A stretch of DNA of 64,000 nucleotides from a virus (taxonomy: Duplodnaviria > Heunggongvirae > Uroviricota > Caudoviricetes). The notes under the pieces were generated by a model. It did not search any database and was not told the DNA's origin. It saw nothing but the letters and a program-made list of their open reading frames with translations. The stretch is taken from the IMG/VR virus record IMGVR_UViG_3300001688_000696; one strand, written 5' to 3'. The translations under genes and the position numbers were made by a program. Of this stretch, positions 1 through 55,340 are shown one piece after another. Within the stretch, counting starts at the first letter, position 1; each line of letters starts with the position of its first letter.

Positions 1-793
1 TTCCGGCGAGTTCGGTTTTTTCAATCTCATCACTGGAACGCGATGCGCCATCCGTGTGATTGCGGGCGCTCAGAATGTACAGCCCCGACGTAAATTTTGC
101 CGGGTGCGGCGATTCATCAAATACGACCTCGAAAGTATAGGTCTGGTTGGCGTCCATCCAGTCCGTACCAATCTGGTCGAGGTACTCCTTCGCCTTTTTC
201 GTGTAAATTTGCTCCGGGCGGTCGCTGTCCGGGTCATAAAAAGTCTGGCGGGTCGCCAAAAACAGTTTTCCATTTTCTAAGCGGCGAGCCACAATCATCG
301 AGCCGTCAATTTTCTCCGGGAACTTGATTTCCCCGGTCATATTCTCGAAGATAAATTCGTCATCCGGGCACCCCGGTTCGCCCATATTAAAAAACTTCGT
401 CATGGGCAGCATCAAAATCCCATCCGGGCTGCGTCCCTTCAGGTCGATATACAGCCCCCGGCACATCATATCAAAGACGGAAAATTCCCCGAAGTGCCGG
501 CCATAGTCAAGGTTGACCACACCGTTTTTTAAATCTACCTTGATTTCGGATACGATGGGTTCGCCGTTATTTAGCTTGTACCGGGCGACTTCCCGGAAAT
601 AATCGATTTTCTTCTGGATAAGCGCCTTGTTGTTTTGCAGGGATGGGTTATTGACCAGCCCACCGAAAATCTCGTTTGCCAGTTTCGCTGTCTCACAGGC
701 TAACCGGTAGTTATTGCTATGCTTTTCAATTTCTGTAATTTGGAACTGCGGGAAAATCCTCAGTAAGACCTTATTGATTTTCCAAACAGCCAT
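1..793 (-). CDS. 3'-partial (runs off window edge) nucleotidyltransferase / RNA-DNA ligase-like protein
   Basis: Uninterrupted reverse-strand frame from ATG at 793..791 (RBS gaggt upstream) to position 1. Translation MAVWKINKVLLRIF... contains FPEKIDGSMIVARR (KxDG nucleotidyltransferase motif I of ATP-dependent ligases) and TFEVVFDE. Not in the ORF track because it has no stop inside the window. Confidence 0.5.
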   Translation of the reverse strand, partial: MAVWKINKVLLRIFPQFQITEIEKHSNNYRLACETAKLANEIFGGLVNNPSLQNNKALIQKKIDYFREVARYKLNNGEPIVSEIKVDLKNGVVNLDYGRHFGEFSVFDMMCRGLYIDLKGRSPDGILMLPMTKFFNMGEPGCPDDEFIFENMTGEIKFPEKIDGSMIVARRLENGKLFLATRQTFYDPDSDRPEQIYTKKAKEYLDQIGTDWMDANQTYTFEVVFDESPHPAKFTSGLYILSARNHTDGASRSSDEIEKTELAG

Positions 794-952
794 TTGCGAT
801 ACCTCAGTCAAATGTTCTTTAAAGCGGCCACACTCCATTAGTCAGCACTCCTTTTTCAAAGCATCCAATTTTCATTCCTAATATGATGGTAGCAAACGCA
901 AAACCTTTATTTTTTGACGAGAGAAGCACTTTTTTCAACAAAAGAAAAGCCC

Positions 953-979
953 TTGACAACTTAGAAAAAATGGTATAAT
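953..979 (+). promoter_or_regulatory. sigma70-type promoter (TTGACA 953-958, TGn-TATAAT 974-979)
   Basis: Consensus -35 and extended -10 seen directly. RBS gaggag at 999-1004 precedes ATG 1012. Confidence 0.6.
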
Positions 980-1011
980 ATTTATAACAACTTTGTGCGA
1001 GGAGAAAAAAT

Positions 1012-2277
1012 ATGACCCAAATCCCTGTGCAAACCACGAAAGAACTGATTGGATACTTTCCGGGCATGTGGAACGTCTATGCCCGGTTTGCTGTACGGAC
1101 GGCGGATGCCGCTGTCAAAATTCCGGCAGGCAAAGTGCTGACTTTGGTCGAAAAAAGGCCCCGGGCGGAGGATGGCAGTGAGGTGTATATTTACCGTTTA
1201 GTCGATGGTTTATTTATTGCCATCGACCACCAGCTAACCGAGGCTGAAGCCCAACCGGTCAAAGACACAGAACTGCTTCAGGCGGTTTTGGCGTACAAGT
1301 CGCTGTCAGACTGGATGTCCGAAAGTGGCCTTGAACTGGCCAGAGTTTATGAGCCAGTCCCCCCGTTTTCTGTTATTCGCTGCCCGCTTTGCGGCGGCCA
1401 TGAATTTACGTCGGTGGATTTCGCGGCGGTGTATTGCAACACTTGCAATGCCCACTTCAGTGTTCGCCACACTGCTGGCGACCCCGGCTTTGTTGTCGAC
1501 TGTGAGCTAGCATGGTATAGCTGGTGGAACGCGAAATATGTCATTCCCCCGGCTTTGACGTTGTCCTTCTACATGGTTTTGAAGGACACGGATGACCCCC
1601 GCAATATGGATACAGAAAATTGCGGATGCGGCGACCATCCGGCGCTTACCGGCGAAGATGAACGCACCCTGCGCCCCGGACTGCACAAGTGCAATATCGG
1701 CACGGTGTACGAATGGCGACTGGCGGGCACCGTGCCGACCCGGAACGATTTGAAGGGGAACACGACCGCCAACATTGAAGGCGAAATTTGGCCGCAATGC
1801 GCTACGGTTGAATATTTTTCGCCCGGTTACGAACTTCGCTCGGCGCTGGAATCTCTGCTGTTCAACTTCAAGCAGAACGAAAAAAATCCAGCGGTCATCG
1901 ATGCCGTGACAGCCCCCGTCAAAGAGCTATTGGGGCGTCCGAAGCGCCCGGTTTCCGTGATGGTTGATTCTTTACCAGATGCCGAACGGCTTGCCGATGG
2001 AGAGGTGTATCTTTTGCACCACTGGCTGATTGCAGACGATAAAACCGCCCTGCCGGTCTGGTGGGTCGTCAGGCCGAAGGTGGATAATGGCTATTTTGCC
2101 GGGTTTGATGTCGTGCGGAAGAATATCTGCCCGGTCTGCCAATCGGAAGTCACCACAGAAGAATTCAACGAATTGCAGTATTCTTCCCGCCCAGAAAAAA
2201 AGACCAACTGTGAACACCGGTGGTGCGCAGAGACGTGGTTGAAGTACAACTGGGCGTTGCCGCAAGAAGAAAAATGA
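1012..2277 (+). CDS. hypothetical protein with CxxC Zn-ribbon motifs
   Basis: 421-aa ORF with RBS and promoter. Contains CPLCGGHEF...CNTCNAHF and ICPVCQSE motifs. Followed by a terminator. Confidence 0.7.
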   Translation: MTQIPVQTTKELIGYFPGMWNVYARFAVRTADAAVKIPAGKVLTLVEKRPRAEDGSEVYIYRLVDGLFIAIDHQLTEAEAQPVKDTELLQAVLAYKSLSDWMSESGLELARVYEPVPPFSVIRCPLCGGHEFTSVDFAAVYCNTCNAHFSVRHTAGDPGFVVDCELAWYSWWNAKYVIPPALTLSFYMVLKDTDDPRNMDTENCGCGDHPALTGEDERTLRPGLHKCNIGTVYEWRLAGTVPTRNDLKGNTTANIEGEIWPQCATVEYFSPGYELRSALESLLFNFKQNEKNPAVIDAVTAPVKELLGRPKRPVSVMVDSLPDAERLADGEVYLLHHWLIADDKTALPVWWVVRPKVDNGYFAGFDVVRKNICPVCQSEVTTEEFNELQYSSRPEKKTNCEHRWCAETWLKYNWALPQEEK

Positions 2278-2300
2278 AGTAGGGGGGCTTGGTTGTAATT

Positions 2301-2338
2301 AAAGCGCCCGACCAAAAATGGGCGCTTTTTGTTTATTT
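2301..2338 (+). terminator. intrinsic terminator
   Basis: agcgccc / gggcgct hairpin followed by a T-run. Confidence 0.7.
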
Positions 2339-2410
2339 ATAGACTCTGCGGCCTGAAAACCACCCGCTTCAGCAGCTGGTAGTTCACTAGAACAAAATAG
2401 AAAAAACATT

Positions 2411-2507
2411 GCAATTTCGTTGCAATATACAAGCAATATTGACATATGTCAATAGTGCTTGTATAATAAATAAAACAAACAAAAAACAGAAAAAAACAGG
2501 AGGGAAC
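2411..2507 (+). promoter_or_regulatory. promoter/operator cassette copy 1
   Basis: TTGCAA-N5-TTGCAA direct pair of palindromic hexamers. A ~34-bp near-perfect palindrome (acaagcaatattgacatatgtcaatagtgcttgt) is centred on catatg and contains the -35 TTGACA (2439-2444); TATAAT at 2463-2468. A-rich UTR and RBS caggagggaac lead to ATG 2508. About 87% identical to the copy at 3531-3630. Confidence 0.7.
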
Positions 2508-2942
2508 ATGGACACCACTAGTTTATGGCACGCACAGGATGATGAGGAAATTGAAGTAGGAAGTCTTCCTGTAGAGGAGGACTACTATGATGTCGACTGG
2601 GGGCAATTCGTCATCGCCACCCGCGATACGACAGCATTTGTCGGAGGCCACTCCGATGAAATTTACGGCTTCTGGGTTGTAGAAGCCGTTGATAAACTAG
2701 AGGATGCTGCTATTTTCCGCCATCCTGACTCTGCAAAGGCTTTCATCCGCGATAATGCGGACGAACTTAAGTGGGAGGGACTTGACCCTTCCACCCTCGA
2801 AATCTATCGGATTCCCTTGGCATATTTCTCTCTTATATATGCCAGAAAGAATAGCTGGAGTGAAGAGGATATTAAGAGTGCACTAGAAAGTCCATACTCC
2901 CCATGGTTTAAGGATGACCGTGATAGCAGTAATGTAGATTGA
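2508..2942 (+). CDS. hypothetical acidic protein (144 aa)
   Basis: ATG 2508 follows RBS ggaggg. The track ORF 2409..2942 is an N-terminal over-extension through the promoter. Confidence 0.65.
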   Translation: MDTTSLWHAQDDEEIEVGSLPVEEDYYDVDWGQFVIATRDTTAFVGGHSDEIYGFWVVEAVDKLEDAAIFRHPDSAKAFIRDNADELKWEGLDPSTLEIYRIPLAYFSLIYARKNSWSEEDIKSALESPYSPWFKDDRDSSNVD

Positions 2943-2974
2943 TTGTATAAAATTAATAAACAGCTCCAAACAAT

Positions 2975-3020
2975 AGCCCCCTTTACCAGATAATAAAAAC
3001 AGGTGGGGGGTTATTGTTTT
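2975..3020 (+). terminator. hairpin (gccccc...gggggg) + T-run, candidate terminator
   Basis: Seen in sequence; the loop is large. Confidence 0.4.
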
Positions 3021-3063
3021 AACTTTCAATCAGTATAAATAATTGCAATCTAGTTATAAAATT

Positions 3064-3175
3064 GCATGCTTGAATCAAAATTTATCCCATGAAGGGATTG
3101 AAACAGGAGCGACTTGCCCACTTCCAGCAGGCTGGCATGCTTGAATCAAAATTTATCCCATGAAGGGATTGAAAC
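3064..3175 (+). CRISPR. orphan mini-CRISPR array: two identical 41-nt repeats, one 30-nt spacer
   Basis: Repeat gcatgcttgaatcaaaatttatcccatgaagggattgaaac at 3064-3104 and 3135-3175. Spacer aggagcgacttgcccacttccagcaggctg at 3105-3134. The repeat has an internal hairpin (atccc-atgaa-gggat) and ends in ATTGAAAC, the canonical Cas6 crRNA 5' handle. AT-rich leader upstream; no cas genes in the window. Confidence 0.6.
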
Positions 3176-3242
3176 ATTGAATAAAAGAACTATTTTATAT
3201 AGTTTTTATCAGATTTCAACCAACAAAGAAGAGGAGCTTAAA

Positions 3243-3467
3243 ATGACTAAACAAGAATTAATCGAAATGTTAGCCAGTTTCCCTGATGATATGGAAGTAG
3301 TTTTTAGTTATCCTAGTGGGGATTACTGGCATTCTGTAATCACCAAAGAACTTCAAACTGTAGAATCCGGATTAATAGAATATAGTGCTTATCATAGTAG
3401 CAATATTCTATGTAGTAATCAGGATGAATTAACAGTTGATAATAGGGAAGTGATTATCATTTCATAG
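3243..3467 (+). CDS. small hypothetical protein (74 aa)
   Basis: ATG 3243 with RBS aagaggag. The upstream part of track ORF 3114..3467 reads through the CRISPR repeat and is unlikely to be coding. Confidence 0.45.
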   Translation: MTKQELIEMLASFPDDMEVVFSYPSGDYWHSVITKELQTVESGLIEYSAYHSSNILCSNQDELTVDNREVIIIS

Positions 3468-3530
3468 CTTACCATATTACAAGGAGTCTAAATTGATAGT
3501 TATATCAGTATGGGGAAATAGAACAAAAAA

Positions 3531-3630
3531 TTGCAATTTCGTTGCAATATACATGCACTATTGACATATGTAAATAGTGCATGTATAATAAGTACAGCAA
3601 ACAAAAAAAACAGGAAAAACAGGAGGGAAC
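3531..3630 (+). promoter_or_regulatory. promoter/operator cassette copy 2
   Basis: Same architecture as 2411-2507: TTGCAA-N5-TTGCAA, a ~34-bp near-palindrome (acatgcactattgacatatgtaaatagtgcatgt), -35 at 3561-3566, -10 at 3585-3590, and an identical RBS caggagggaac before ATG 3631. Arm substitutions relative to copy 1 preserve the dyad symmetry. Confidence 0.7.
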
Positions 3631-3912
3631 ATGAGCACCAATCTATGGAAAAAATACGCACCGGAAACACGCCCAGAGGATTGGACGGGCATGAGCGAAG
3701 CGGAAGTTCGCGGGGTCTTAGCCCAGGCGGGCGCAACCGATGAGGAAATTGAAGAAGAAATCGTCCTGTTCATGGACGAAATCCCCACCGCGCACACCTG
3801 CGCAAACTGCGGAAGAAGATTTTACACATATATAAATGACACCGCTCAAAGCGGTGAGTGTTTCGGATACCCCGAGTTATGCTGGTCTTGTGGAGTTGAG
3901 AACCAGGAGTAG
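3631..3912 (+). CDS. hypothetical Zn-ribbon protein (93 aa)
   Basis: ORF with cassette RBS. C-terminal CANCGRR...CWSCG motif. Confidence 0.65.
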   Translation: MSTNLWKKYAPETRPEDWTGMSEAEVRGVLAQAGATDEEIEEEIVLFMDEIPTAHTCANCGRRFYTYINDTAQSGECFGYPELCWSCGVENQE

Positions 3913-3989
3913 CATTCACCCCGAGCCGGGGCGGGTAATCCCCGGTATTGGTCCAGGAATTAGCCCTCGCCGGGGAGGCGGTCAGCCCC

Positions 3990-4125
3990 GGCACAAAAAA
4001 CGCTGTTCTGCTTGCCACTACATCAACCCCGATATGCCGCTTTCGATTCGTGAGTGGGATTGCCCCGTTTGTGGCGTTCACCATGGAAGCGCCCGAATCT
4101 ACGCCGAGGGAGTGAATGTAAGCCC
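3990..4125 (+). pseudogene. remnant of IS200/IS605-family TnpB C-terminal Zn-ribbon
   Basis: Frame-2 translation KKRCSACHYINPDMPLSIREWDCPVCGVHHGSARIYAEG resembles the TnpB OrfB Zn-ribbon signature (C..C...REW.C..CG..HDRD.NAA.NI). No upstream TnpB body. GC-rich hairpins follow (cccatcttcggatggg, ccacccgctaaagcgggtgg). Confidence 0.4.
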
Positions 4126-4214
4126 CATCTTCGGATGGGCCGTTCACGCCGAACTCGGAAGCCACCCGCTAAAGCGGGTGGTGCTTCACCGTCTGTTAGA
4201 TAGACAACTATGAA

Positions 4215-5165
4215 ATGATGTGCGAAATGACCTGCGGAAACCAGACAAAACACTCAAATGAGGTTGCTGAACGCGAAGGGGGAACACAGGCACAACAGCA
4301 AGAAAATGTGTTCAAACCATTCAATTATGAAAGCAGCGAGATTCAGAAAATAATGGATACTGCCTATGCAAGGTGGAACTCCGGGGATTTACAAAACCTG
4401 AACTATAAAGAGTTCGTGGACGCACTTTCTCTTAGGGAAAAGATTGTCGTTGTTTTCGGCAACCTTAATTACCAGGTGTACAACGGTGGATTCGCACAGT
4501 GGCAGGGCAATGGATATGATGTTGTCGCACCGGTTTTGGTAGAGGCGCTGGGCAAGCTGCCGAAGTACGGCCCGGAAGTCGCTGCACTGGTAAAACATTT
4601 GGTCAATGAAAAAGAACGGTTTGAAAATCTTTATGCTGATTACCGGCAAGACTACGAAATGTGGGGCTGGGATATACCGCATGAGCCGGATAGAGAAGAT
4701 TTTGACGATGAAGAGTCGTATGAGGCTGCTGTTGATGAATACGAGCAGGAATTTGCCGACTGGCAGTGCGAAGTGCCGTGCGAACCAGAACTGGAATACG
4801 AGTATGAAGGGCAGGATTTGGACGAAGAATATTACTTACGTGCCGACCATCTGGCTTATGAATTAGAAGCCATCGTCAAAATGAGTGATGAGGAGCTGGA
4901 ACGGTGGTGGAATGAAACTCCATCTGTGGTTCCATCAATTGACGAAGTGCTGTTCGGCGTTCCCGCCCCAGCCCCGGCACAGCCTACAAAGCCAACGGTC
5001 AAACTGACCGGCACAGATGGCAACGTCTTTGTGGTCAAGGCGAATATGGAAGCGGCTTTGCGGGATTTCGACCGGGAAAATGGCACAAATCTCCTGGAGA
5101 AGTTCCGCTCCGAGTGGCGGCAGCAGGAGGAAAACCCGGATGCCACGTACGACAAAATGCTTTAG
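4215..5165 (+). CDS. hypothetical highly acidic protein with YNGGFAQW motif (possible DUF4375/DMP19-like DNA mimic)
   Basis: 316-aa ORF. NGGF motif recalled from DMP19/DUF4375-like proteins. Long D/E-rich segment (EDFDDEESYEAAVDEYEQEF...). Terminator downstream. Confidence 0.65.
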   Translation: MMCEMTCGNQTKHSNEVAEREGGTQAQQQENVFKPFNYESSEIQKIMDTAYARWNSGDLQNLNYKEFVDALSLREKIVVVFGNLNYQVYNGGFAQWQGNGYDVVAPVLVEALGKLPKYGPEVAALVKHLVNEKERFENLYADYRQDYEMWGWDIPHEPDREDFDDEESYEAAVDEYEQEFADWQCEVPCEPELEYEYEGQDLDEEYYLRADHLAYELEAIVKMSDEELERWWNETPSVVPSIDEVLFGVPAPAPAQPTKPTVKLTGTDGNVFVVKANMEAALRDFDRENGTNLLEKFRSEWRQQEENPDATYDKML

Positions 5166-8370: not shown

Positions 8371-11300
8371 ATGAAAAAGACAGGGCGTTTCTTCACCTTT
8401 CTCGTTTTGCTTATTTTGGTAGTCTCCTGCCTGTCAGGTGTGCCAATGCCTGCCAATGCCGCTCCTTTACAGCAAGCGGGGGGAACCGTGATTATCGGGC
8501 CATCAGGCGGTGTGTGGACGTACATCAGCACTCCCAGTCCCAGCACAACCACATCGGAATGGTATCCGACTTCGGGAGCATATAAGGACTGGTATAAGCC
8601 TAGTTACGATGAATCGGGATGGTCGCTCAATCCGGCTACGGGCTGGTCAAAGCAATGGGATACTTTAGGATGGAGCGTCCCTAGCGGGTTATCCAAACTG
8701 GCTTACCATTACAGTTCTGACGCGAATTATTCCATTGGCTTGCATCGCCAGTGGTTTGCCATTCCTGCGGGACAGCGGGCGACATCGGTGAAGCTGGAAA
8801 TCTTCGCCGATGACATGTTCACCGCTCATTTGAACGGCGTAAAACTGTTTACCTATGGGGGCGCTCATTCAGAAACCTTCACCAACATTGACCCCAGCAT
8901 TTTGGCTGAAGGCGGCAACCTGCTGGCGATTTCGCTTTTGAACGCATCCGGCCCCGGCGGCCTTGTTTACAGGCTGACGGTGACATACGCCGACACGGTT
9001 CCCCCAACGTTGGGGTTTAGCGGAGCGGTCAGCAATACCTGGTACAACTCGAACCGAACGATTACGGCGGCATCTACTGACCATTATGGAATTGCCGAAC
9101 AATATGTGTCGGACACAAACGGCAACTGGCGCACCAGCTTTACAGCCACCCAAACCACTGACATCTGGTGTAGAGCAAAAGACAATAACGGCAACTGGGC
9201 AGGGCCGAGCATCTGCGGCAAGGTGCTGATTGACAAAACTGCGCCCACGCTTGGTTTTGCCGGTGCGACCAGCGGCAGTTGGTATAACTCCAACCGAACC
9301 ATCACACCGAATTCAAGCGATTCGGGCGGCTCGGGATTGAGCGCTCAATATGTCTCGGATACAAATGGAAACTGGCGTTCCAGCATCACGGTTTCATCGA
9401 CCACCACGATATACTGCTACGCTAAAGACAAGGCAGGGAATGAAAAAAGCGGCACTTGCGGTACAGTAAACATCGATAAATCCGCCCCATCTGCCGGGAA
9501 AAACCCAACGCTGAACCCATCTTCATGGACGAATGGAAACGTAACCGCCACGGTGACAAAAGGTGACGATACGGGAGGTTCAGGTTCAAAGGGAATTAAC
9601 TGTTCGACAACCAGCAGTGTTCCGACCACCAATACAACAGCGACTACTTGTTCCCAAACATTTACCAGCAATGGAACACTTTATTACCGTACAGTAGACA
9701 ACGCGGGGAACTGGAGTGCGGTTGGGTCTGTAGCAGTCACGAATATTGATAAAACAGCTCCTCAGTCGGGCAAAAACCTGACATTGAACCCATCCGCGTG
9801 GACAAATGGGAACGTGGTCGCCACAATTACCAAAGGGGATGATACTGGTGGGTCTGGCGCAAGAGGGGTGAACTGCGCAAAAACCAGTAATGTCCCCACG
9901 ACAGATACCACAGCTTCAACTTGTTCCCTGACGTTTACTGAAAACGGAACATTCTATTATCGCACGGTAGATAACGCCGGGAACTGGAGCGCAGTTGGTT
10001 CTGCGAATATCACCAATATCGACAAAATTCCCCCTCTGCCTTCGGGTGCCGTTTCTTCTGTCGCCCCGGAAGGCTGGACAAATCAAGATGTAATTGTGTC
10101 AGTTTCAACCGATGAAATAGAAGATGAACCGGGCGGCGTCACAATCTTCTGCAAGACAGATTTAGAAAGCTCCTATACCGAGGGGGGCGAAACGTGTGCA
10201 AAAACCTTCCCGCAAAACGGCGTATTCTCTTATTACTTGCAGGACGCAGCAGGAAACAAGAGTATTGTCCAAACGATTGCTGTTACTACGATTGATAAAA
10301 CACCACCGCAGGTTGCCTTCAGGTACCCGCGTTATACCGTTAGCGATGACAGCCTGATTATCACAGTAGATATAGGTGTAGACGATGAATCAGGTGCGAA
10401 AGGTATTGCCTGCGCCGCCGAAAGTGGGGCGGTTTCGATGGATGACACAGCCGCCCAAAGCTGTTCAATCACCGTCCCGCTAACTACGGCCGCTGTCCAT
10501 CTCTATGCCCGGACGCTGGACAATGCCGGGAATTGGAGTTCTGAAGGCATAGCAACTGTTCATCCCCAACTTGCACCCGCGCCCGTGCAGGAGGTTAATG
10601 TTTCTCAACCTGTACAAAGCGGCGTCTGGCAAAACCACAGCAACCAGCTTACATTCAGTTGGGAATCGCCTGACACTCTGGCGATTGGCTACGAGGTCTA
10701 TTGGGGGACAAATGAAAATGCTACCAGTGGGGTTCAGCAAACCGAAACCACCTTCCAGACCCCGGCGCTGACCGATGGTGTACCGCAGTATTTACGCATC
10801 AAAAGCATCGGGTCATACGGTTATGATTCGGACTGGCAAACTGTTTTTGTGTCGCTGTACGACACAAGCAAGCCGACCGGCATCACATCCGCAACGGAAA
10901 TCCACGGGGTTATTTCTTCGGTTGCGCAGTCGGAGATTGACCAGCCGGCCTTTGTTTGGAACCCGGCAACAGATGTGGCGGGCATACTCGGCTATCAAGT
11001 GTACTTCGGCAATAACCCCAATGGTACATCAACCACGCTGGTGACTACTCCCGAATTTACGGTTGAAAGCCCGGTTGAAAACACCGGCCTGTACTATCTG
11101 CGCCTGCGAAGTGTGGATAATGCGGGGAACTATTCCGATTGGAAGCTGGCGTTTATTTTCAATTACAAAGCAGCGGTTATCCCTAACGTCAGCTCGGCGC
11201 GAGAAATTAATGGTCTCACCAGCGATGTGTGGCAGAAGGGCGTGAATCGCCCGAGCTTTGTGTGGGATGTGCCAGATGAAAACATTACCGGTTATCGAGT

Positions 11301-12690
11301 TTACTTTGGGACGAACCCCAATGGTACATCCGATTACTTCACCAGCCAAACTGCGTATAGCCCATCTGAGCCTGTTACCAACACCGGCACATACTATCTG
11401 CGGGTGCAATCCGTATTATCATCGGGCAAGCATTCGGAATGGAATACGGTGTTCGTGTTCAAGTACGACATCAGCCGCCCCGACCCGGTAGCCTACCCGA
11501 TTACCGAGCTGACCGGTTCTCAGCCGAATATTTGCCAATCGGTGACACGCTCACCACACTTCGTCTGGGGAAAACCCGCAGATGTCGGAAGCGGAGTGGC
11601 GGGCTATAAATACCTGTGGACAAAAGACCCGAATGAGATTAATGAAGAAAAGGCTGCTTTTATCGGCGGGGAATCGCTGGTACTCGACAATATTGATGGC
11701 GGCATCCACTTTTTACTCCAAAAAGCATTTGACTATACCGGGAACGAGTCGGACTGGACAATCACCTATGATTTCTGCTACGCACTGGCAGAAGGTTATG
11801 TTTTTCCAACTGAGGATACCGAGATTACGGCGACCCTGCCGGATAGCAACAATCAGGTGACATTACAACTGCCGGCCGGTATGCACGATGACCCGTTGAA
11901 AATCATGGTTTATGACGGGACAGCGAACACGCCGCCCGTTGCTGATTTCCGAATGCTGGGTACTTCGTTCGGTCTGGAAGCCATTTCTGCTACGACTAAC
12001 GAAAACATCAAAAACTTCAACAAACCCTATACTATCCGGGTGACGTATACAGATGAAGATGTTGCTGATATTGACCCGACTACGCTGAAGATTTATTATC
12101 GCAACCCGGAAACCGGAGAATGGGAAGCCCTGCCGACATCTACAGTAGATACGGTCAATCGGGTCGTTACGGCGACGATTGACCATATGTCCGAATATGG
12201 TGTAATGGGGTTACGCCAGACGGAAAATAGCTACGCAGTTGTAAACGTTCAGGGACAAAGCACATTCAACATTGAGGCTGCGCCGGTTGATTTCGGTACA
12301 GTCAATCTGAATGGCGAACCGAAATACCTTGAAGTTGATTCGCCGGGCTGGACAGCCATTGACCCGACCGGACTTGGCAACGGCTGGACATTACAGGTGG
12401 CTGCTTCGGACTTCGTTTCTGGCGAACGTAGCCTGCCAGTTTCCAACCTTTCTATCCTGCTGGACAATACGACCGTGCAGGTCGTTGCAGGTAATGACTC
12501 CCCAGCTTCACTGGTGGAAAATTGGACGGCGTTGAACTATATCCCGCTACCAGTGCTGACCGCCCAAAATGGTAAGGGTATGGGGACGTATACTTTCACG
12601 CCTCGCTTCTCGCTGTACCTTCCGGCATCCACCTATGCGGGTGAATATCATGCGACCATCACCGTTACCATGATTGCAGGCGGTCAATAG
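8371..12690 (+). CDS. 1439-aa secreted repeat protein (Ig-like/FN3-like tandem domains)
   Basis: Signal peptide. Repeated ~90-aa modules IDKTAP...TGG SG...YYRTVDNAGNWS and FN3-like ...YxVYxGTN... modules. Possible adhesin or host-recognition fibre. Confidence 0.85.
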   Translation: MKKTGRFFTFLVLLILVVSCLSGVPMPANAAPLQQAGGTVIIGPSGGVWTYISTPSPSTTTSEWYPTSGAYKDWYKPSYDESGWSLNPATGWSKQWDTLGWSVPSGLSKLAYHYSSDANYSIGLHRQWFAIPAGQRATSVKLEIFADDMFTAHLNGVKLFTYGGAHSETFTNIDPSILAEGGNLLAISLLNASGPGGLVYRLTVTYADTVPPTLGFSGAVSNTWYNSNRTITAASTDHYGIAEQYVSDTNGNWRTSFTATQTTDIWCRAKDNNGNWAGPSICGKVLIDKTAPTLGFAGATSGSWYNSNRTITPNSSDSGGSGLSAQYVSDTNGNWRSSITVSSTTTIYCYAKDKAGNEKSGTCGTVNIDKSAPSAGKNPTLNPSSWTNGNVTATVTKGDDTGGSGSKGINCSTTSSVPTTNTTATTCSQTFTSNGTLYYRTVDNAGNWSAVGSVAVTNIDKTAPQSGKNLTLNPSAWTNGNVVATITKGDDTGGSGARGVNCAKTSNVPTTDTTASTCSLTFTENGTFYYRTVDNAGNWSAVGSANITNIDKIPPLPSGAVSSVAPEGWTNQDVIVSVSTDEIEDEPGGVTIFCKTDLESSYTEGGETCAKTFPQNGVFSYYLQDAAGNKSIVQTIAVTTIDKTPPQVAFRYPRYTVSDDSLIITVDIGVDDESGAKGIACAAESGAVSMDDTAAQSCSITVPLTTAAVHLYARTLDNAGNWSSEGIATVHPQLAPAPVQEVNVSQPVQSGVWQNHSNQLTFSWESPDTLAIGYEVYWGTNENATSGVQQTETTFQTPALTDGVPQYLRIKSIGSYGYDSDWQTVFVSLYDTSKPTGITSATEIHGVISSVAQSEIDQPAFVWNPATDVAGILGYQVYFGNNPNGTSTTLVTTPEFTVESPVENTGLYYLRLRSVDNAGNYSDWKLAFIFNYKAAVIPNVSSAREINGLTSDVWQKGVNRPSFVWDVPDENITGYRVYFGTNPNGTSDYFTSQTAYSPSEPVTNTGTYYLRVQSVLSSGKHSEWNTVFVFKYDISRPDPVAYPITELTGSQPNICQSVTRSPHFVWGKPADVGSGVAGYKYLWTKDPNEINEEKAAFIGGESLVLDNIDGGIHFLLQKAFDYTGNESDWTITYDFCYALAEGYVFPTEDTEITATLPDSNNQVTLQLPAGMHDDPLKIMVYDGTANTPPVADFRMLGTSFGLEAISATTNENIKNFNKPYTIRVTYTDEDVADIDPTTLKIYYRNPETGEWEALPTSTVDTVNRVVTATIDHMSEYGVMGLRQTENSYAVVNVQGQSTFNIEAAPVDFGTVNLNGEPKYLEVDSPGWTAIDPTGLGNGWTLQVAASDFVSGERSLPVSNLSILLDNTTVQVVAGNDSPASLVENWTALNYIPLPVLTAQNGKGMGTYTFTPRFSLYLPASTYAGEYHATITVTMIAGGQ

Positions 12691-14733: not shown

Positions 14734-15597
14734 ATGATGACGATGGACATTATTATTTGTGGCGATGTGTTAGATGAACTCAAGAAAATCCCAGATAGTT
14801 CAATCGACCTGATTGTTTGCAGCCCGCCGTACAACAAAGGCGGGGCAGCGCAGGGATATTTGATTGACAACGTTCTTTATTCCCACTTCCGGGACAATCT
14901 TCCTGAAGGAATCTACCAACAGTGGCAGGTGGATGTTTTGAACGAAGCCTACCGGACGGTTAAGCCGGGCGGCTCGCTGTTCTATAATCACAAAATTCGC
15001 TGGAACGATGGGGAGATTATCCATCCTTATTCATGGCTGTGCCGCACGGTCTGGAAAGTCAAGCAGGAAATCATCTGGGACAGGAAACTCGCGGCGAATA
15101 TTCGTGGCTGGCGCTTCTGGCAGACAGATGAACGCATTTACTGGCTGTACAAGCCGTTCAAGGGCAAACACGGAAATATTGGGGTGGAGTTGAAATCCAG
15201 ACATGCCTCTTTGCGTTCTATCTGGCAGATTACGCCGGAGAAAAAGAACCGCAACTCGCACCCGGCACCGTTTCCGCTGGCGCTGGCAGCCCGGATAATC
15301 TATTCGATTTTTGACGAAAAAAAGGGGAAGCACGTTTTGGATATGTTCTGCGGTTCGGGGACGACTCTACTGGCAGCGAAACTGTTAGGGCACCACTACA
15401 TTGGCATCGACAACTCCCCAGAATATGTAAAAATGGCACGGAGGCGGCTCGAACAGCCGCCCGAACACGATATAGAACGCTTCCAGCAGGAAATCGCCCT
15501 GCATAAGACCAACACCAGCTATGATGAATTCAGAAGCGCAAAGAAGTCCACGGGGCGTTATAAATCGAAGTACCGGCAGCGCCGCCAATCTTCCTGA
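14734..15597 (+). CDS. DNA methyltransferase, beta-class N6A/N4C (N-terminal SPPY motif IV, C-terminal FCGSGTT motif I)
   Basis: IVCSPPYN near the N-terminus and DMFCGSGTTLLAAKLLGHHYIGID near the C-terminus (PF01555-like order). ATG 14743 is an alternative start with better RBS spacing. Confidence 0.9.
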   Translation: MMTMDIIICGDVLDELKKIPDSSIDLIVCSPPYNKGGAAQGYLIDNVLYSHFRDNLPEGIYQQWQVDVLNEAYRTVKPGGSLFYNHKIRWNDGEIIHPYSWLCRTVWKVKQEIIWDRKLAANIRGWRFWQTDERIYWLYKPFKGKHGNIGVELKSRHASLRSIWQITPEKKNRNSHPAPFPLALAARIIYSIFDEKKGKHVLDMFCGSGTTLLAAKLLGHHYIGIDNSPEYVKMARRRLEQPPEHDIERFQQEIALHKTNTSYDEFRSAKKSTGRYKSKYRQRRQSS

Positions 15598-25985: not shown

Positions 25986-26869
25986 CATCGAAACCTGTTG
26001 AAAAAATCCTTGTAGGTGGCGATGCCCGCACGGTGCAGACAGTAAACAAATTTTGTCTCTTGTTGCGGGTTGTCACGATTGCTAGTAGACAGGAAATAGA
26101 GACAGTACCGGCAATTCAAAGCCAATCCCCATTTGATATGTTTTAGGCAGGTCGTGTTATTTTCCTGCAAGGGGCAGCCCATTACAACCCAATCGTTCAG
26201 CGAATCATTGAAGTTGACTGCCCTCTGGTCAGCCATTGATGCCATCGTTACCCAGATTTGTTCTGGCATCGGATTGTTCAACCAGTTCATCATGCGCACC
26301 GGATTGGTGAGGATTTTGGCAAGTTCCTGACGGTCTGGAAAATGTCTAAGACGATGTAAATCGACCTCAATCGCCGGCCAACCGTTTTGCTCAATGATGC
26401 GAAGTTTTTCCCGCCCAACGCGGTGAGTGACGTAGATTTCAAGCAGCAGTGGTTCGCCAGCGGAAAAGATAACGATGTCCGGGACAATCCTACCCAGTCT
26501 GGTTTCCAGCGCCACTTCGTCAATTTTGACTTCGATTTTTTCGTCTTTACGAAAGGTGCGATATACCCGGCGAAAGTAAACGCTGCGACCAGAACGGGTG
26601 AAAAACGATAAAAATTCAATCCCGTATCCCGGAATAAAAATGGTTTTTTGCTGGCTGAGGATTTCTTTCGTCAGAAGGTGCAGTGTGGTTTCGCCAGCCC
26701 ATTCGCATTCCGGCGAATTGAGATGGGCGAAGTGATGGATTTTGATGCTCCCCTTACGGGCGACCAGCGGGGCGTTGCAGGTGGGGCAGATGCACTGACA
26801 GGCAGCTCCGCTTTCGACTTCAGAGATATGAACCAGCTTGCCGTTTTTTAGGCCATAGGGAATTTTCAT
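25967..26869 (-). CDS. CoiA-like competence protein family nuclease
   Basis: N-terminal CICPTCNAPLVARKGSIKIHHFAHL, matching the CoiA signature recalled from memory. The 3' end overlaps the tRNA-Glu 3' end by ~19 nt on the opposite strand. Confidence 0.6.
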   Translation of the reverse strand: MKIPYGLKNGKLVHISEVESGAACQCICPTCNAPLVARKGSIKIHHFAHLNSPECEWAGETTLHLLTKEILSQQKTIFIPGYGIEFLSFFTRSGRSVYFRRVYRTFRKDEKIEVKIDEVALETRLGRIVPDIVIFSAGEPLLLEIYVTHRVGREKLRIIEQNGWPAIEVDLHRLRHFPDRQELAKILTNPVRMMNWLNNPMPEQIWVTMASMADQRAVNFNDSLNDWVVMGCPLQENNTTCLKHIKWGLALNCRYCLYFLSTSNRDNPQQETKFVYCLHRAGIATYKDFFNRFRCLPKRI

Positions 26870-26922
26870 GGGATTGATAGATTAATCATATCGAATGCTA
26901 TTTTAAATGTCAAATAATCCCC

Positions 26923-26950
26923 TTGACAAAACTAGCAAATTGCATATAAT
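26923..26950 (+). promoter_or_regulatory. sigma70 promoter TTGACA-16-TATAAT
   Basis: TTGACA at 26923-28 and TATAAT at 26945-50. Shares the 14-nt ATATAATTATCCAC motif with the promoter region at 62390. Confidence 0.6.
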
Positions 26951-27080
26951 TATCCACAGAACGCAGGACACTTCTACAGTTACTTCTTGCTCTAGCCGAG
27001 CAGATTCGAATCGGACGAATCCTTCTTAAGGTCTTGCGTTCCCCACATCAACAAAAAACGGCCGCCCGGCCGTTTTTTTA
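26951..27080 (+). ncRNA. candidate ~125-nt non-coding leader/sRNA ending in an intrinsic terminator
   Basis: No start codon between the promoter and the terminator (acggcc gccc ggccgt + T7 at 27052-27080). The downstream gene 27157 has no promoter of its own. Confidence 0.35.
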
Positions 27081-30171: not shown

Positions 30172-30422
30172 GGCGTCTCTCCTTATTATACAAATTATAC
30201 TATAAAATATTACTTTTGTAAAGTATGTCCATAATATTTAGATTCAAATAGGCTTTGATTCCAAAAAGTTATCCAATTTTATAACAAAATTTTTGCAATA
30301 CGCACCATCTGTGCGCTTTGTTGGATAGGCTAAAGGTTTTTGGGATGATAATCAAGCATAATGAACTATTTTCGATAGTAAACCGACATATCGCGTCATT
30401 CTTGAAAGAAAGGATGACCAAA

Positions 30423-31067: not shown

Positions 31068-31490
31068 AAAAATCCCCGGTAGATGCCGGGGATTTTTGTT
31101 CGTTTTTAGGCTTAAAAACTTACTGGTCGAGGTTCATCCAATCGGCGTTGTCAAAATTCGTCGCCCATCCCCATGTCATCCAGCACTCCGGGGCTTCCGA
31201 AAGCATGTTGGTGGCAAAAGCAGCGTTTACAGAATCCTTGCCCAGAACCCACCGACTTTAGCCGGTGGAGCTTCAGTGGGAGAAAAACAAAATAAGGCAA
31301 ATGCTGCCCGCTGCCATATGTTGTGGTGGTTCATCAGTAAGGCAGATGTTTTTGCGAGAGAAGACTGCAATGACCGGAATATTGAATATTCCCCGAATTA
31401 ATCTGGTAACACGAACTCTGGTTATTGCTATAATTATTATGAATAGACACACCGTTCTTTAACAACCGAATAAAGGAGACCGTCAACTAC

Positions 31491-44280: not shown

Positions 44281-44348
44281 GTGTTATCCTTTCAATTCGG
44301 TATATACTAATTATACCAAATAGTAATTATTTTGTCAATGAACAGCAA

Positions 44349-52803: not shown

Positions 52804-52936
52804 CGCAAATCGTCCCGAAAACGCCACTTCTCGTCCATGAAAAAAACAGAATCCCCTTGAATTTTCAAAAATATTGTGCCATACTAATTATACAAAATAA
52901 GATTGCTTTTGACAGGGGATAATAAATAACAGGCAG

Positions 52937-53113
52937 AATGACGAACTCAACACGCAGGAAGCGACCGAATTGGCTCAGGTTTACGGCGTACAGGCTACTC
53001 CGCAGTCGATTTGGTACGCAGCCTACAGCGGTTATCTTCCCGGCGCGGTGCGGAACGGTTCTGATTATCGCATCCCGGTCAATAGACTGATGAATTACAT
53101 CCGCCCGCAGTAG
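52937..53113 (+). pseudogene. excisionase/AlpA-family HTH DNA-binding ORF lacking an in-frame canonical start
   Basis: Frame translation NDELNTQEATELAQVYGVQATPQSIWYAAYSGYLPGAVRNGSDYRIPVNRLMNYIRPQ* fits the excisionase-family HTH pattern. The frame opens at 52913 with no ATG, GTG or TTG before the HTH. An ATG at 52938 lies one nucleotide out of this frame. Confidence 0.45.
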
Positions 53114-53229
53114 GGCGGCCTTATCCTGACTTTTTGCCCGCCAGATATTCTGACGGGTTTTGTTTTGGGAACAAAAAATGTAGTTATTTCGCCTTATTTA
53201 AATAACACAATTGTGAAGGAGAAACATCT

Positions 53230-53655: not shown

Positions 53656-53675
53656 ACCATATCCCAACAGGCACA

Positions 53676-53711: not shown

Positions 53712-53777
53712 GTGCAAAAACGCCCTGGCATCCGTTCCCATTCGTCTTTTTGAAAACGAATATCTGCCGAGGTCAAC

Positions 53778-55085: not shown

Positions 55086-55340
55086 TCACTCGATTAGCGC
55101 CAGCTCGGGGATTTCGCCTTCGATGCGCAGCCTGCCCTGCGCTAAATAGTGGTTGACCAAATTTCGCCCCATTCGCCAGTCTTCTCCGGCATTAGGACTG
55201 GACGGCGGGTGTTTAACGATTAAATATCGTGTCGTCCAGCCGACAAATTCCATCTCTTGTTCCGGTGATGAATCATCTGCCATAAAAAAAATTTTCGGAT
55301 TTTGTGACACAGGGATAATTTCGTCGGAATAGCTAGTCAT
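55086..55340 (-). CDS. hypothetical protein (84 aa)
   Basis: RBS aggag. Confidence 0.55.
   Translation of the reverse strand: MTSYSDEIIPVSQNPKIFFMADDSSPEQEMEFVGWTTRYLIVKHPPSSPNAGEDWRMGRNLVNHYLAQGRLRIEGEIPELALIE

What the first reader, a model, noticed from the sequence alone, without database searches (positions are those of the whole stretch)
2411..3630. Duplicated ~100-bp promoter/operator cassette with compensatory dyad-symmetric changes, flanking the mini-array
Positions 2411-2507 and 3531-3630 are ~87% identical. Each carries:
- TTGCAA-N5-TTGCAA;
- a ~34-bp near-perfect palindrome centred on CATATG that embeds the -35 TTGACA and the spacer;
- a -10 TATAAT;
- an A-rich UTR and the identical RBS CAGGAGGGAAC before the start codon.
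Between the two copies the palindrome arms differ (caagc...gcttg versus catgc...gcatg), yet the dyad symmetry is kept. That points to selection for binding by a dimeric regulator rather than simple duplication. The two cassettes drive unrelated small genes (an acidic protein and a Zn-ribbon protein) and bracket the mini-CRISPR array and a 74-aa ORF. The arrangement looks like a modular, co-regulated expression cassette system. Related half-sites (TGCGAAATTCGCA at 41601, TGCGAATTG at 48536) occur elsewhere in the window.
Basis: seen in the sequence. Interest (0 to 1): 0.7.

Follow-up and report, generated by a model that had tools for sequence, protein, structure and literature searches.

The report
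Portable promoter cassette marking gene-module swaps
The two ~115-bp repeats are real copies of a portable strong-promoter/leader cassette. Strain comparisons show they came together when a gene module carrying a mini-CRISPR array recombined into the cassette of a small mobile gene unit, so the pair marks modular gene shuffling more clearly than it marks a repressor site.

Summary
Window 2403-2517 and 3525-3640 are 87-89% identical. Each copy has TTGCAA-N5-TTGCAA, a 40-bp near-palindrome, a perfect TTGACA-N17-TATAAT promoter, an A-rich leader and the identical CAGGAGGGAACATG. The window holds only these two copies.

Strain-level relatives (99-99.9% backbone identity) change the reading:
- Some strains have an empty site after the DUF7567 gene.
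- Others have one cassette plus the Zn-ribbon gene there, inside a decayed IS200/IS605 (TnpB) element (window 2341-4189).
- Others carry an 87%-identical cassette + Zn-ribbon module about 51 kb away (window site 55283-55286).

The window differs from the single-cassette strains by exactly 1122 bp: the acidic ORF, a terminator-like hairpin, the mini-array and ORF74. The breakpoint lies in the 24-bp identical TTGCAA stretch. Copy B is 97% identical to the single cassette, while copy A is only 89% identical to B. A is therefore an older paralogue brought in by recombination, not an in-situ duplicate.

Dyad symmetry is only partly conserved. There are three compensatory double changes (P about 0.003-0.01), but 5-6 of 20 pairs are broken in the other-site variants. 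No regulator was found.

Best reading: a promoter/recombination cassette that works like the PeSLs of T4-type phages. An operator function is possible but unproven.

The parts
2301..2338 (+). Intrinsic terminator of the DUF7567 gene (1012-2277). It ends the conserved backbone just before the insertion point.
   Evidence: Terminator scan. It is identical in strains with an empty or a filled site.
2341..4189 (+). Whole inserted element: a decayed IS200/IS605 (TnpB)-type element that carries both cassettes and their cargo. It is absent, with precise boundaries and no target duplication, from strains L106/L108/L109 (...TTTATTTAT|CGTCTG...).
   Evidence: Empty versus filled sites. TnpB C-terminal remnant. 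Shared motif at the left and right ends.
2341..2384 (+). Left-end segment of the IS-like element. It contains CCACCCGCTTCAGCAGCTGG (2360-2379), which is related to the right-end hairpin.
   Evidence: It folds only weakly on its own.
2385..2517 (+). Cassette copy A: left arm CACTAGAACAAAATAGAA, the dyads, the promoter, the leader, the ribosome-binding site and the first ~3-7 codons.
2408..2431 (+). 24-bp stretch identical in copies A and B (ATTGCAATTTCGTTGCAATATACA). It contains the small dyad ATTGCAA-TTTCG-TTGCAAT, which is the TTGCAA-N5-TTGCAA feature. The recombination breakpoint relative to the single-cassette strains lies here.
   Evidence: Alignment A2. L104/L107 match copy A to the left of this stretch and copy B to the right.
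2426..2465 (.). 40-bp near-palindrome A, centred on CATATG, with one mismatched pair.
2439..2467 (+). Promoter A: TTGACA (2439-2444), 17-bp spacer, TATAAT (2462-2467). The predicted transcription start is near 2474, so the palindrome is not in the promoter's own transcript.
   Evidence: The start site is inferred.
2508..2942 (+). Acidic 144-aa ORF of unknown function. It has no homologue other than itself.
   Evidence: The structure model is poor.
2969..3020 (+). Terminator-like hairpin (AACAATAGCCCCC...GGGGGGTTATTGTTTT) after the acidic ORF.
   Evidence: Seen in the sequence. The scan did not call it because the loop is long.
3064..3176 (+). Mini-CRISPR array: two identical 42-nt repeat copies (3064-3105 and 3135-3176) around one spacer (3106-3134).
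   Evidence: family D9. The spacer has no match in the window, the fetched loci or the viral contigs.
3243..3467 (+). 74-aa ORF, AT-rich (32% GC), the last gene of the extra module.
   Evidence: It is not on record elsewhere.
3516..3640 (+). Cassette copy B. It is 97.4% identical to the single cassette of strains L104/L105/L107.
3548..3587 (.). 40-bp near-palindrome B, with one mismatched pair (TTGACA versus TTTACA).
3561..3589 (+). Promoter B: TTGACA-N17-TATAAT.
3631..3912 (+). 93-aa Zn-ribbon ORF, the gene that accompanies the cassette in every related strain found.
   Evidence: The structure model has pLDDT 87 but no informative fold match.
3913..4189 (+). TnpB C-terminal remnant plus the structured 3' region and right-end hairpin (CCACCCGCTAAAGCGGGTGG, 4162-4181) of the IS-like element.
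55283..55286 (-). Second insertion site, empty in the window, inside the 84-aa ORF 55086-55340(-). In strains L098-L103 an 87%-identical cassette + Zn-ribbon module (491 bp in L103) sits here.

Best explanation
The repeat unit is a portable promoter-leader cassette. It comprises:
- a consensus sigma-70-type promoter;
- an upstream TTGCAA dyad;
- a palindrome spanning the -35 box and the spacer;
- an A-rich leader and a strong ribosome-binding site;
- the first few codons of the downstream ORF.

Its usual partner is a small Zn-ribbon gene. Cassette and gene together form a roughly 0.5-kb module. The module is present or absent at two different sites among near-identical strains of a large (about 0.3-0.4 Mb), tRNA-rich genome made mostly of orphan ORFs. 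That genome could be a huge phage or another extrachromosomal element. At the window's site the module lies inside a decayed IS200/IS605 (TnpB) element.

The 'duplication' arose, or can be undone, by homologous exchange within the 24-bp identical TTGCAA segment. The partners were the resident cassette (B type) and a diverged paralogous cassette (A type). The A-type cassette heads a second module containing the acidic ORF, a terminator-like hairpin, the one-spacer mini-CRISPR array and ORF74.

Each copy most likely works as a strong constitutive or early promoter for the ORF that follows it. The pair also acts as a substrate for module insertion and excision, as promoter-early stem-loops (PeSLs) do in T4-type phages.

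What is shown: the sequence anatomy, the presence/absence polymorphisms, the breakpoint position and the paralogy of the two copies.

What is inferred: promoter activity, the direction of the event (insertion or deletion) and any role of the palindrome. The conserved 22-bp core ACTATTGACATATGTAAATAGT overlaps the -35 box. It is a reasonable candidate operator for a dimeric repressor, but that layer is unproven (my estimate is about 0.35).
For: - Anatomy.
- The window holds eight perfect 12/12 sigma-70 consensus promoters, so host-type promoters are in general use in this genome.
- L104/L105/L107: DUF7567 gene, the same terminator and left flank as copy A, one cassette with the copy-B body, then the Zn-ribbon gene.
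- L104 aligns at 99% to window 714-2517 and at 96% to 3516-4085, skipping 1122 bp.
- L106/L108/L109 lack the whole 2341-4189 element.
- L098 is 99.6% identical to window 55287-64000, and L103 is 99.9% identical to 52933-55282. Both carry an 87%-identical cassette + Zn-ribbon module inserted at 55283-55286.
- A versus B is 89% identical; B versus the single cassette is 97.4%.
- The breakpoint falls within 2408-2431.
- The acidic ORF shares only its first ~7 codons with the Zn-ribbon ORFs, so the cassette was grafted onto an unrelated gene.
- PeSLs are described as strong sigma-70-like promoters plus stem-loops. Recombination between flanking copies inserts or deletes orphan ORFs and yields mini-circles (PMC2839356).
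Against: - There are no expression data, so promoter strength is judged from the consensus only.
- Only two copies lie in 64 kb, and only about five sequence variants are known in all. PeSLs occur in dozens per genome. The rest of the ~400-kb genome could not be read: the source contig was not retrievable and did not come up in the metagenome scan.
- The donor of the A-type module was not found.
- The stem-loop overlaps the promoter and has no T-run, so it is not a PeSL-type terminator.
- The module's move between the two sites is not explained by cassette homology alone. The site-2 junction (TTTTT|CACTAGAAC ... GCGACCAG|TGGCAG) shows no homology, no inverted ends and no duplication.
- Three compensatory changes in the palindrome suggest some constraint that a pure 'promoter + recombination' model does not need.
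Confidence: 0.62

Rival explanations
1. Operator model. The 40-bp palindrome, and perhaps the TTGCAA dyad, are binding sites for a dimeric repressor or activator that co-regulates both genes. Selection keeps the dyad symmetric.
For: - The palindrome overlaps the -35 box and the spacer, the classic position for a repressor.
- The 22-bp core is conserved in four of the five distinct variants.
- There are three double-sided, pair-restoring changes. A simple simulation gives P(>=3) = 0.003-0.01.
- The TTGCAA dyad is nearly invariant, with one A>G change in L107.
- The 7-mer GCAATTT, which is part of the TTGCAA box, is enriched near four other strong promoters of the window: 5 observed versus 0.38 expected, about 0.03 after correction. 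This includes a 9-bp inverted repeat at 21196-21218.
Against: - Symmetric double changes do not restore binding by a protein that reads each half-site separately.
- The outer arms carry 5-6 mismatched pairs of 20 in L098 and L103, whose promoter hexamers remain intact.
- No HTH, Zn-finger regulator or other DNA-binding domain was detected in any window ORF.
- The Zn-ribbon protein has no fold match to DNA binders.
Confidence: 0.35
2. Nucleic-acid hairpin model. The palindrome acts as a stem-loop: in single-stranded DNA, as a cruciform, or in read-through RNA. Possible roles are a recombination or replication signal, an RNase III-type processing site, or a barrier to upstream transcripts. Base pairing is what is conserved.
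For: - Compensatory changes are the signature of pairing.
- The predicted hairpins are strong in A and B: RNA -25.8 and -26.0 kcal/mol, z -6.5 and -4.9; DNA z -7.7 and -5.3.
- No intrinsic terminator was called between ORF74 and copy B, so read-through RNA would contain the hairpin.
- PeSLs combine a promoter with a stem-loop.
Against: - The palindrome lies upstream of the predicted transcription start of its own promoter.
- No T-run follows the stem, so it is not an intrinsic terminator.
- In L103 the hairpin is essentially lost (-3.1 kcal/mol, z -0.7), and in L098 it is replaced by a weaker alternative fold (-7.5).
- Rfam gives no family match.
Confidence: 0.15
3. No selected function for the symmetry. 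The palindrome is a quasi-palindrome kept or 'corrected' by template-switch mutation. Alternatively, it is a by-product of a mirrored -35/-10 arrangement that gives a weak divergent promoter.
For: - A minus-strand promoter-like site exists: TTGACA-N17-TATATT (11/12) in A and TTTACA-N17-TATATT (10/12) in B.
- The symmetry decays in the other variants.
- Two of the three double changes are G:C to A:T on both sides, the commonest mutational direction in an AT-rich region.
- Template switching in quasi-palindromes is an established mutational mechanism (general knowledge).
Against: - No minus-strand gene follows either copy.
- The minus-strand -10 degrades to TGTATT in L098 (read from the sequences).
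- A 40-bp palindrome with 19 of 20 pairs, seen in two diverged paralogues, is far beyond chance.
Confidence: 0.2
4. Site-specific recombination site. The small dyad ATTGCAA-TTTCG-TTGCAAT is the core site of a dedicated recombinase that captures cargo modules, in the manner of an integron or a shufflon.
For: The breakpoint maps to the 24 bp that contain this dyad. The dyad is the most conserved part of the cassette.
Against: - The breakpoint zone is simply the longest identical stretch, as expected for homologous exchange.
- No integrase or resolvase domain was found in the window.
- The 5-bp spacer is short for a tyrosine-recombinase core (general knowledge).
- Only one exchange event has been observed.
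Confidence: 0.08

Closest known systems
PeSLs (promoter-early stem-loops) of T4-type phages (Arbiol et al. 2010, PMC2839356; Comeau et al. 2014, PMC4122927)
   Same: - Short conserved cassettes combine a strong sigma-70-like promoter with a stem-loop and sit in front of small orphan ORFs.
- Recombination between copies inserts, deletes or swaps the intervening ORFs between closely related genomes.
- Here the breakpoint of a 1122-bp module lies inside the cassette.
   Different: - The stem-loop overlaps the -35 box and spacer instead of lying beside the promoter, and it has no terminator T-run.
- The crossover is upstream of the -35 box, not between the -10 box and the ATG.
- Only two copies are visible in 64 kb.
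- The genome is unrelated to T4-like phages.
- The cargo includes a mini-CRISPR array.
- The cassette is nested in an IS200/IS605 remnant.
- Mini-circles have not been shown.
Phage morons (autonomous promoter-gene-terminator units in lambdoid phages; general knowledge)
   Same: A self-contained promoter + small ORF unit that is present or absent between close relatives. Copy A also carries a terminator-like hairpin.
   Different: Morons are not defined by a shared, repeated promoter cassette that serves as the recombination junction.
Palindromic operators overlapping strong promoters, such as the inverted repeats bound by Aca repressors at anti-CRISPR promoters, or LexA and phage repressor operators (general knowledge)
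   Same: Dyad symmetry overlapping the -35 box and spacer of a near-consensus promoter that drives small, acidic or orphan early-type genes.
   Different: - No cognate repressor gene is in the operon or the window.
- The palindrome is 40 bp, longer than typical operators.
- The outer arms are not conserved among variants.
IS200/IS605-family (TnpB) elements and their non-autonomous derivatives
   Same: - The 2341-4189 insert has a TnpB C-terminal remnant and a structured 3' end with a right-end hairpin.
- A related motif sits near the left end.
- There are no inverted terminal repeats and no target duplication.
- Presence and absence are precise between strains.
   Different: - There is no tnpA, and tnpB is reduced to about its last 60 codons.
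- The cassette, the Zn-ribbon gene and the array module are cargo, which is not a standard part of such elements.
- The cassette hairpins do not resemble the IS end hairpins.
Virus-borne mini-CRISPR arrays and solitary repeat units (Medvedeva et al. 2019; Faure et al. 2019; Al-Shayeb et al. 2020; general knowledge)
   Same: A one-spacer array without cas genes on a large, phage-like element.
   Different: This concerns the cargo, not the cassette. Neither the target nor the host was found here.

Membership tests
Sigma-70-type bacterial promoter | -35 TTGACA and -10 TATAAT hexamers separated by 17 +/- 1 bp | tested here: met
   12/12 matches with a 17-bp spacer in both copies. The hexamers and spacing are kept in all five variants.
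Sigma-70-type bacterial promoter | Transcription actually initiates downstream of the -10 box | not testable with these tools
   No transcript data are available. The start sites near 2474 and 3596 are inferred.
Operator of a dimeric repressor | Dyad-symmetric site overlapping the core promoter | tested here: met
   A 40-bp palindrome with 19 of 20 pairs spans the -35 box to the edge of the -10 box.
Operator of a dimeric repressor | Symmetry and half-site sequence conserved among homologous sites | tested here: inconclusive
   The 22-bp core is kept in four of the five distinct variants. The outer arms carry 5-6 of 20 mismatched pairs in L098 and L103. There are three double-sided changes, P about 0.003-0.01.
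Operator of a dimeric repressor | A cognate DNA-binding protein encoded nearby or identifiable | tested here: not met
   No HTH or other DNA-binding Pfam domain was found in any window ORF. The Zn-ribbon protein has no DNA-binder fold match. The rest of the genome was not visible.
PeSL (promoter-early stem-loop) cassette | Strong sigma-70-like promoter within a conserved short cassette upstream of small ORFs | tested here: met
PeSL (promoter-early stem-loop) cassette | Adjacent stem-loop that is an effective transcription terminator | tested here: not met
   The stem-loops are present, but the large one overlaps the promoter and neither is followed by a T-run. The scan did not call them as terminators.
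PeSL (promoter-early stem-loop) cassette | Recombination between copies explains insertions and deletions between close relatives | tested here: met
   A 1122-bp difference between the window and L104/L105/L107, with the breakpoint in the 24-bp identical stretch.
PeSL (promoter-early stem-loop) cassette | Many copies clustered in hyperplastic regions; circular excision products | tested here: inconclusive
   Only 2 copies lie in 64 kb. The remaining ~340 kb was not available. Circles are not testable here.
Intrinsic (rho-independent) terminator | GC-rich stem followed by a run of T | tested here: not met
   The palindrome is AT-rich and is followed by AATAAATAAAAC. It is absent from the terminator list.
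IS200/IS605-family element (for the 2341-4189 insert that carries the cassettes) | tnpB (or its remnant) at the 3' side | tested here: met
   In L107: PF07282 scores 42.2 bits against a cut-off of 26.3, and NF038281 matches model positions 316-359 of 360. The window copy gives weaker hits.
IS200/IS605-family element (for the 2341-4189 insert that carries the cassettes) | Subterminal hairpins of related sequence at both ends; no inverted terminal repeats; no target duplication | tested here: met
   The left-end motif 2360-2379 and the right-end hairpin 4162-4181 share CCACCCGCTTnAGCnGnTGG. The junctions are clean, TTTAT|AGACTC and CTTCAC|CGTCTG. The left-end hairpin itself is degenerate.
IS200/IS605-family element (for the 2341-4189 insert that carries the cassettes) | tnpA (Y1 HUH transposase) or evidence of current mobility | tested here: not met
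   There is no tnpA in the element, and tnpB is truncated. It is therefore a decayed, non-autonomous derivative.
Integron-like capture site (attC/attI) | Associated tyrosine integrase and recombination at a conserved core | tested here: not met
   No integrase domain in the window. Only a single junction is available.

The most novel reading that the evidence does not exclude
Large phage-like elements of anaerobic digesters may use a family of palindrome-bearing promoter cassettes as a dedicated capture-and-express system. Cargo modules, including mini-CRISPR arrays used against competitors, would integrate and excise at the invariant TTGCAA dyad. They would arrive already wired to a strong promoter that a common, still unidentified factor controls through the palindrome and the GCAATTT boxes. 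This would be a promoter-borne analogue of an integron, riding inside IS200/IS605 remnants.
Probability: 0.1. Interest if true: 0.8.

Novelty: new variant of a known kind. Interest (0 to 1): 0.45.

Why it matters
It gives a concrete, strain-resolved example of how a very large, mostly orphan-gene genome gains and loses small expressed modules. The route is exchange at a shared promoter cassette, and one such module carries a mini-CRISPR array. That extends the PeSL idea, so far documented in T4-type phages, to an unrelated lineage and to defence or counter-defence cargo.

It also supplies three naturally occurring states (empty, single module, double module) that could be tested directly by PCR in digester samples.

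It is also a caution. A 'duplicated operator with compensatory changes' read from one genome turned out to be two paralogues joined by recombination.

Tried and rejected
- **More copies in the window.** Exact, mismatch-tolerant and blastn-short searches found none.
- **Public collection scans with cassette patterns.**
  - Viral contigs gave only chance hits.
  - The metagenome scan with TTGCAA-N5-TTGCAA-N13-TTGACA gave 81 stretches, none related.
  - Phage and plasmid BLAST gave no match.
- **Source contig.** Exact look-ups of the acidic ORF, the Zn-ribbon ORF, P0001 and ORF74 found nothing on record. The acidic protein has no homologue but itself, on a 399,701-bp JGI contig.
- **Distant DUF7567 loci (38-40% identity).** They carry no cassette.
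- **Host identification through the CRISPR repeat in genome contigs.** There were two single hits and no array.
- **Spacer target.** None found.
- **Regulator hunt.** Pfam scans of essentially all window ORFs, some run as concatenates, found no DNA-binding domain. The Serglycin hits are linker artefacts.
- **Protein structures.**
  - The acidic protein model is unusable (pLDDT 42).
  - The afdb50 library was unavailable.
- **Rfam.** No family match.
- **Readings rejected.**
  - A recent in-situ tandem duplication: A versus B is 89% identical while the backbone is 99% and B versus the single cassette is 97%.
  - The cassette hairpins acting as IS605 end hairpins: the sequences are unrelated to the right-end hairpin.
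  - The full-length TnpB genes in L103 and L111 as parents of the remnant: no similarity.
Full report
**1. The observation**

The two stretches are real repeats. MAFFT aligns 2380-2530 with 3500-3653 at 89% column identity. The repeat finder reports 2403-2496 versus 3525-3618 at 87% and 2481-2517 versus 3604-3640. Both copies contain the following:
- TTGCAATTTCGTTGCAAT, exact in both, against 0.22 expected by chance.
- A palindrome of 40 bp rather than ~34 bp (2426-2465 and 3548-3587), with 20-bp arms and one mismatched pair each. DNA hairpin energies are -14.1 and -13.1 kcal/mol, z -7.7 and -5.3.
- A perfect TTGACA-N17-TATAAT promoter.
- An A-rich leader and the identical ACAGGAGGGAACATG.

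The similarity continues about 20 nt into the ORFs (MDTTSLW versus MSTNLW). Beyond that the two proteins are unrelated.

Inside the palindrome the copies differ at four positions:
- One pair of changes is complementary (A/T versus T/A at positions 6/33).
- One change repairs a pair.
- One change breaks a pair.

Given four random substitutions, the chance of at least one complementary double change is 0.05. No third copy exists in the window. The 'related half-sites' at 41601 and 48536 do not resemble the cassette boxes.

**2. What kind of genome this is**

- The window has arrays of same-amino-acid tRNA genes: Phe x2, Ser x4 and Glu x4.
- It has four N6/N4 DNA methyltransferases, a GGDEF protein, and otherwise almost no Pfam or PHROG matches.
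- The acidic ORF's only database match is itself, on a 399,701-bp JGI contig.
- Neighbouring genes in relatives include a T4-type RNA ligase and ADP-ribosyl enzymes.
- A 99%-identical copy of the upstream gene comes from a biogas-fermenter metagenome.
- More distant DUF7567 homologues are annotated in Chloroflexota/Anaerolineae MAGs.
- Eight perfect 12/12 sigma-70 consensus promoters occur in 64 kb.

This fits a huge phage or another large extrachromosomal element. No structural genes lie in the window, so I cannot decide between these.

**3. Relatives change the picture**

Cassette-pattern scans of viral and metagenome collections gave only chance hits. Searching with the Zn-ribbon protein and looking up the window's own DUF7567 protein retrieved strain-level relatives. 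BLAST against the window shows three things:

- **Site 1 empty.** L106, L108 and L109 lack everything between 2340 and 4190. The terminator of the DUF7567 gene is followed directly by CGTCTGTTAGATAG and the 316/323-aa gene.
- **Site 1 with one module.** L104, L105 and L107 carry the insert, but with one cassette. The left flank and the cassette up to AAAACATTGCAA match copy A. Everything from ATACATGCAC onward matches copy B (97.4% to B). The Zn-ribbon gene follows. L104 aligns at 99% to 714-2517 and at 96% to 3516-4085, so the window has exactly 1122 extra bases.
- **Site 2.** L098 is 99.6% identical to window 55287-64000. L103 is 99.9% identical to 52933-55282 and 99.3% to 55286-55423. Both carry an 87%-identical cassette + Zn-ribbon module inserted at window 55283-55286, inside an 84-aa ORF that is intact in the window. 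The Logan samples with site 2 filled (SRR25909810, SRR25909818) also yield contigs with site 1 empty.

**4. Anatomy of the insert**

The element is 2341-4189. Its right part is a TnpB C-terminal remnant. In L107, PF07282 scores 42.2 bits against a cut-off of 26.3, and NF038281 matches model positions 316-359 of 360. A structured tail follows, with the hairpin CCACCCGCTAAAGCGGGTGG. A related motif, CCACCCGCTTCAGCAGCTGG, lies 20 nt inside the left end.

There are no terminal inverted repeats and no target duplication. These are the marks of a decayed, non-autonomous IS200/IS605-family element. The cassettes and their genes are cargo between its ends.

The site-2 copy lacks that left end. In L103 it also lacks the TnpB tail. 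How the module reached site 2 is not explained.

**5. How the 'duplication' arose**

- Copy A is 89% identical to B, whereas B is 97% identical to the single cassette and the backbone is 99-99.9% identical. A is therefore not a recent copy of B. It is a diverged paralogue.
- The single-cassette strains are A-like to the left and B-like to the right of the 24-bp identical stretch ATTGCAATTTCGTTGCAATATACA (2408-2431 and 3530-3553).
- A circular or other donor carrying an A-type cassette, the acidic ORF, the terminator-like hairpin, the mini-array and ORF74 would give this pattern. One homologous crossover with the resident cassette in that stretch would integrate it. The reverse event, a deletion between the two copies, gives the same pattern.
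- The extra module is compositionally distinct: ORF74 is 32% GC and the leader regions 24-28%, against 48% for the window.
- The acidic ORF shares only its first ~7 codons with the Zn-ribbon ORFs, so at some earlier time the cassette was grafted onto an unrelated gene.

This behaviour matches that described for PeSLs in T4-type phages. PeSLs are conserved promoter-plus-stem-loop cassettes whose recombination inserts, deletes or swaps small orphan ORFs and produces mini-circles (PMC2839356; PMC4122927).

**6. The palindrome**

Across five distinct variants the hexamers, the 17-bp spacing and the TTGCAA dyad are kept; L107 has one A>G change in the dyad. The 22-bp core ACTATTGACATATGTAAATAGT is kept in all variants except L103.

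The outer arms are not conserved. L098 has 5 and L103 has 6 mismatched pairs of 20. Their hairpins are weak or gone: -7.5 kcal/mol in a different fold, and -3.1 kcal/mol with z -0.7.

Yet three pairs show changes on both sides that restore complementarity. A simple simulation of 14 substitutions on the three branches gives P(>=3) = 0.003-0.01. That model is crude: it assumes B is ancestral and is not tree-aware. Two of the three events are G:C to A:T on both sides.

So some force favours symmetry. It could be protein binding, base pairing or palindrome-templated mutation, and it is not strong enough to preserve the outer arms. Other points bear on this:
- The predicted transcription start lies downstream of the palindrome, so the stem is not in its own mRNA.
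- No T-run follows the stem, so it is not a terminator.
- The mirrored -35 box creates a promoter-like site on the minus strand (11/12 in A, 10/12 in B). No gene follows it, and it degrades in L098.

**7. Regulator**

No DNA-binding domain was found in any window ORF. The Zn-ribbon protein, which always accompanies the cassette, gave a confident model (pLDDT 87.4) but no informative structural neighbour. The acidic protein could not be modelled.

One lead emerged. The 7-mer GCAATTT, part of the TTGCAA box, is the most enriched non-core 7-mer near the other strong promoters of the window. It occurs 5 times against 0.38 expected (P = 4.7e-5 uncorrected, about 0.03 after correction for 638 words). 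The occurrences include AGCAATTTT-CTG-AAAAATTGCT at 21196-21218. This weakly supports a shared factor acting at the TTGCAA box rather than at the large palindrome.

**8. Verdict**

The feature is real. It is best described as a portable promoter-leader cassette that serves as the junction for modular gene exchange. It works like a PeSL but fails one defining PeSL feature, the terminator stem-loop, and its copy number is unknown. An operator role for the conserved core is plausible but unproven.

The argument for a dimeric regulator does not follow from the evidence. I rate it a new variant of a known kind, of moderate interest. The interest lies mainly in two points: a mini-CRISPR array rides on such a module, and three natural states (empty, single, double) are available for testing.

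Noticed in passing
window 2341-4189; L106/L108/L109 (empty), L107/L104/L105 (filled): The whole region is a decayed IS200/IS605 (TnpB)-type element. It has precise presence/absence between 99%-identical strains, no target duplication, and insertion 3' of TTTAT. The window's TnpB remnant has an extra internal deletion compared with L104/L107, which read ...VHHDRDINAA...
   Followed up: yes
window 55283-55286, inside ORF 55086-55340(-); L098-L103: This is a second insertion site for an 87%-identical cassette + Zn-ribbon module. It splits an 84-aa ORF after codon ~18. The site is empty in the window. The junctions show no homology, no inverted repeats and no duplication. L098 continues into another TnpB remnant, whereas L103 does not.
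   Followed up: partly
window 7386, 21197, 21210, 25406, 26937; inverted repeat 21196-21218: GCAATTT/AAATTGC is enriched within strong consensus promoters other than the cassettes: 5 observed versus 0.38 expected. At 21196-21218 it forms a 9-bp inverted repeat, AGCAATTTT-CTG-AAAAATTGCT, upstream of a perfect promoter. This may be a shared regulatory box.
   Followed up: partly
window 3064-3176: A one-spacer mini-CRISPR array whose repeats end in GGGATTGAAAC, with no cas genes nearby. The spacer has no match in the window, the fetched loci or IMG/VR. The repeat was not found as an array in any GTDB species genome.
   Followed up: partly
window 21502-22062 and 25682-25986: Two tRNA gene arrays with redundant isoacceptors: Phe(GAA) x2; Ser(GGA, GCT, TGA, CGA); Glu(TTC x3, CTC).
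   Followed up: no
window 14734-15597, 50116-50874(-), 55861-56700(-), 59062-59931: Four N6/N4-type DNA methyltransferase genes in 64 kb, with no restriction partner detected.
   Followed up: no
window 30188-30221, 44304-44337, 52881-52914, 58295-58331, 62290-62326: A second family of look-alike consensus promoters, on the minus strand for the first three sites. They share the pattern TTGACA-N17-(TG)GTATAAT-TAGTAT/TAATAT.
   Followed up: partly
window 26908-26951: Back-to-back divergent consensus promoters (11/12 and 12/12) whose -35 boxes are 9 bp apart. A GCAAATTGCA palindrome lies in one spacer.
   Followed up: no
window 4215-5165: A 316-aa protein with a very acidic central stretch and a sub-threshold hit to DMP19-like (DNA-mimic) proteins (E = 6e-4, 20.7 bits against a cut-off of 25). 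Together with the acidic 144-aa ORF, this hints at an anti-defence neighbourhood.
   Followed up: no
window 31249-31268: CCACCGACTTTAGCCGGTGG is a hairpin closely related to the IS right-end hairpin at 4162-4181. It may be another IS200/IS605 remnant.
   Followed up: no
window 8371-12690 (repeats at 9469-10014 and 10989-11407): A 1439-aa ORF with no family match. It contains internal tandem repeats of 273 nt and about 300 nt.
   Followed up: no
L001 10163-10205 (IMGVR_UViG_3300031760_000192): An unrelated viral contig has three tandem 11-bp units, TTGCAATTT(G/C)G, in a divergent intergenic region. The box matches the cassette's TTGCAATTTCG.
   Followed up: no
L110, L111, L112 (contig ends): Three assemblies break 23-25 nt into the left end of the IS-like element. 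Several others break 30-210 bp downstream of the Zn-ribbon gene. This suggests strain heterogeneity or multi-copy IS sequence at these points.
   Followed up: no
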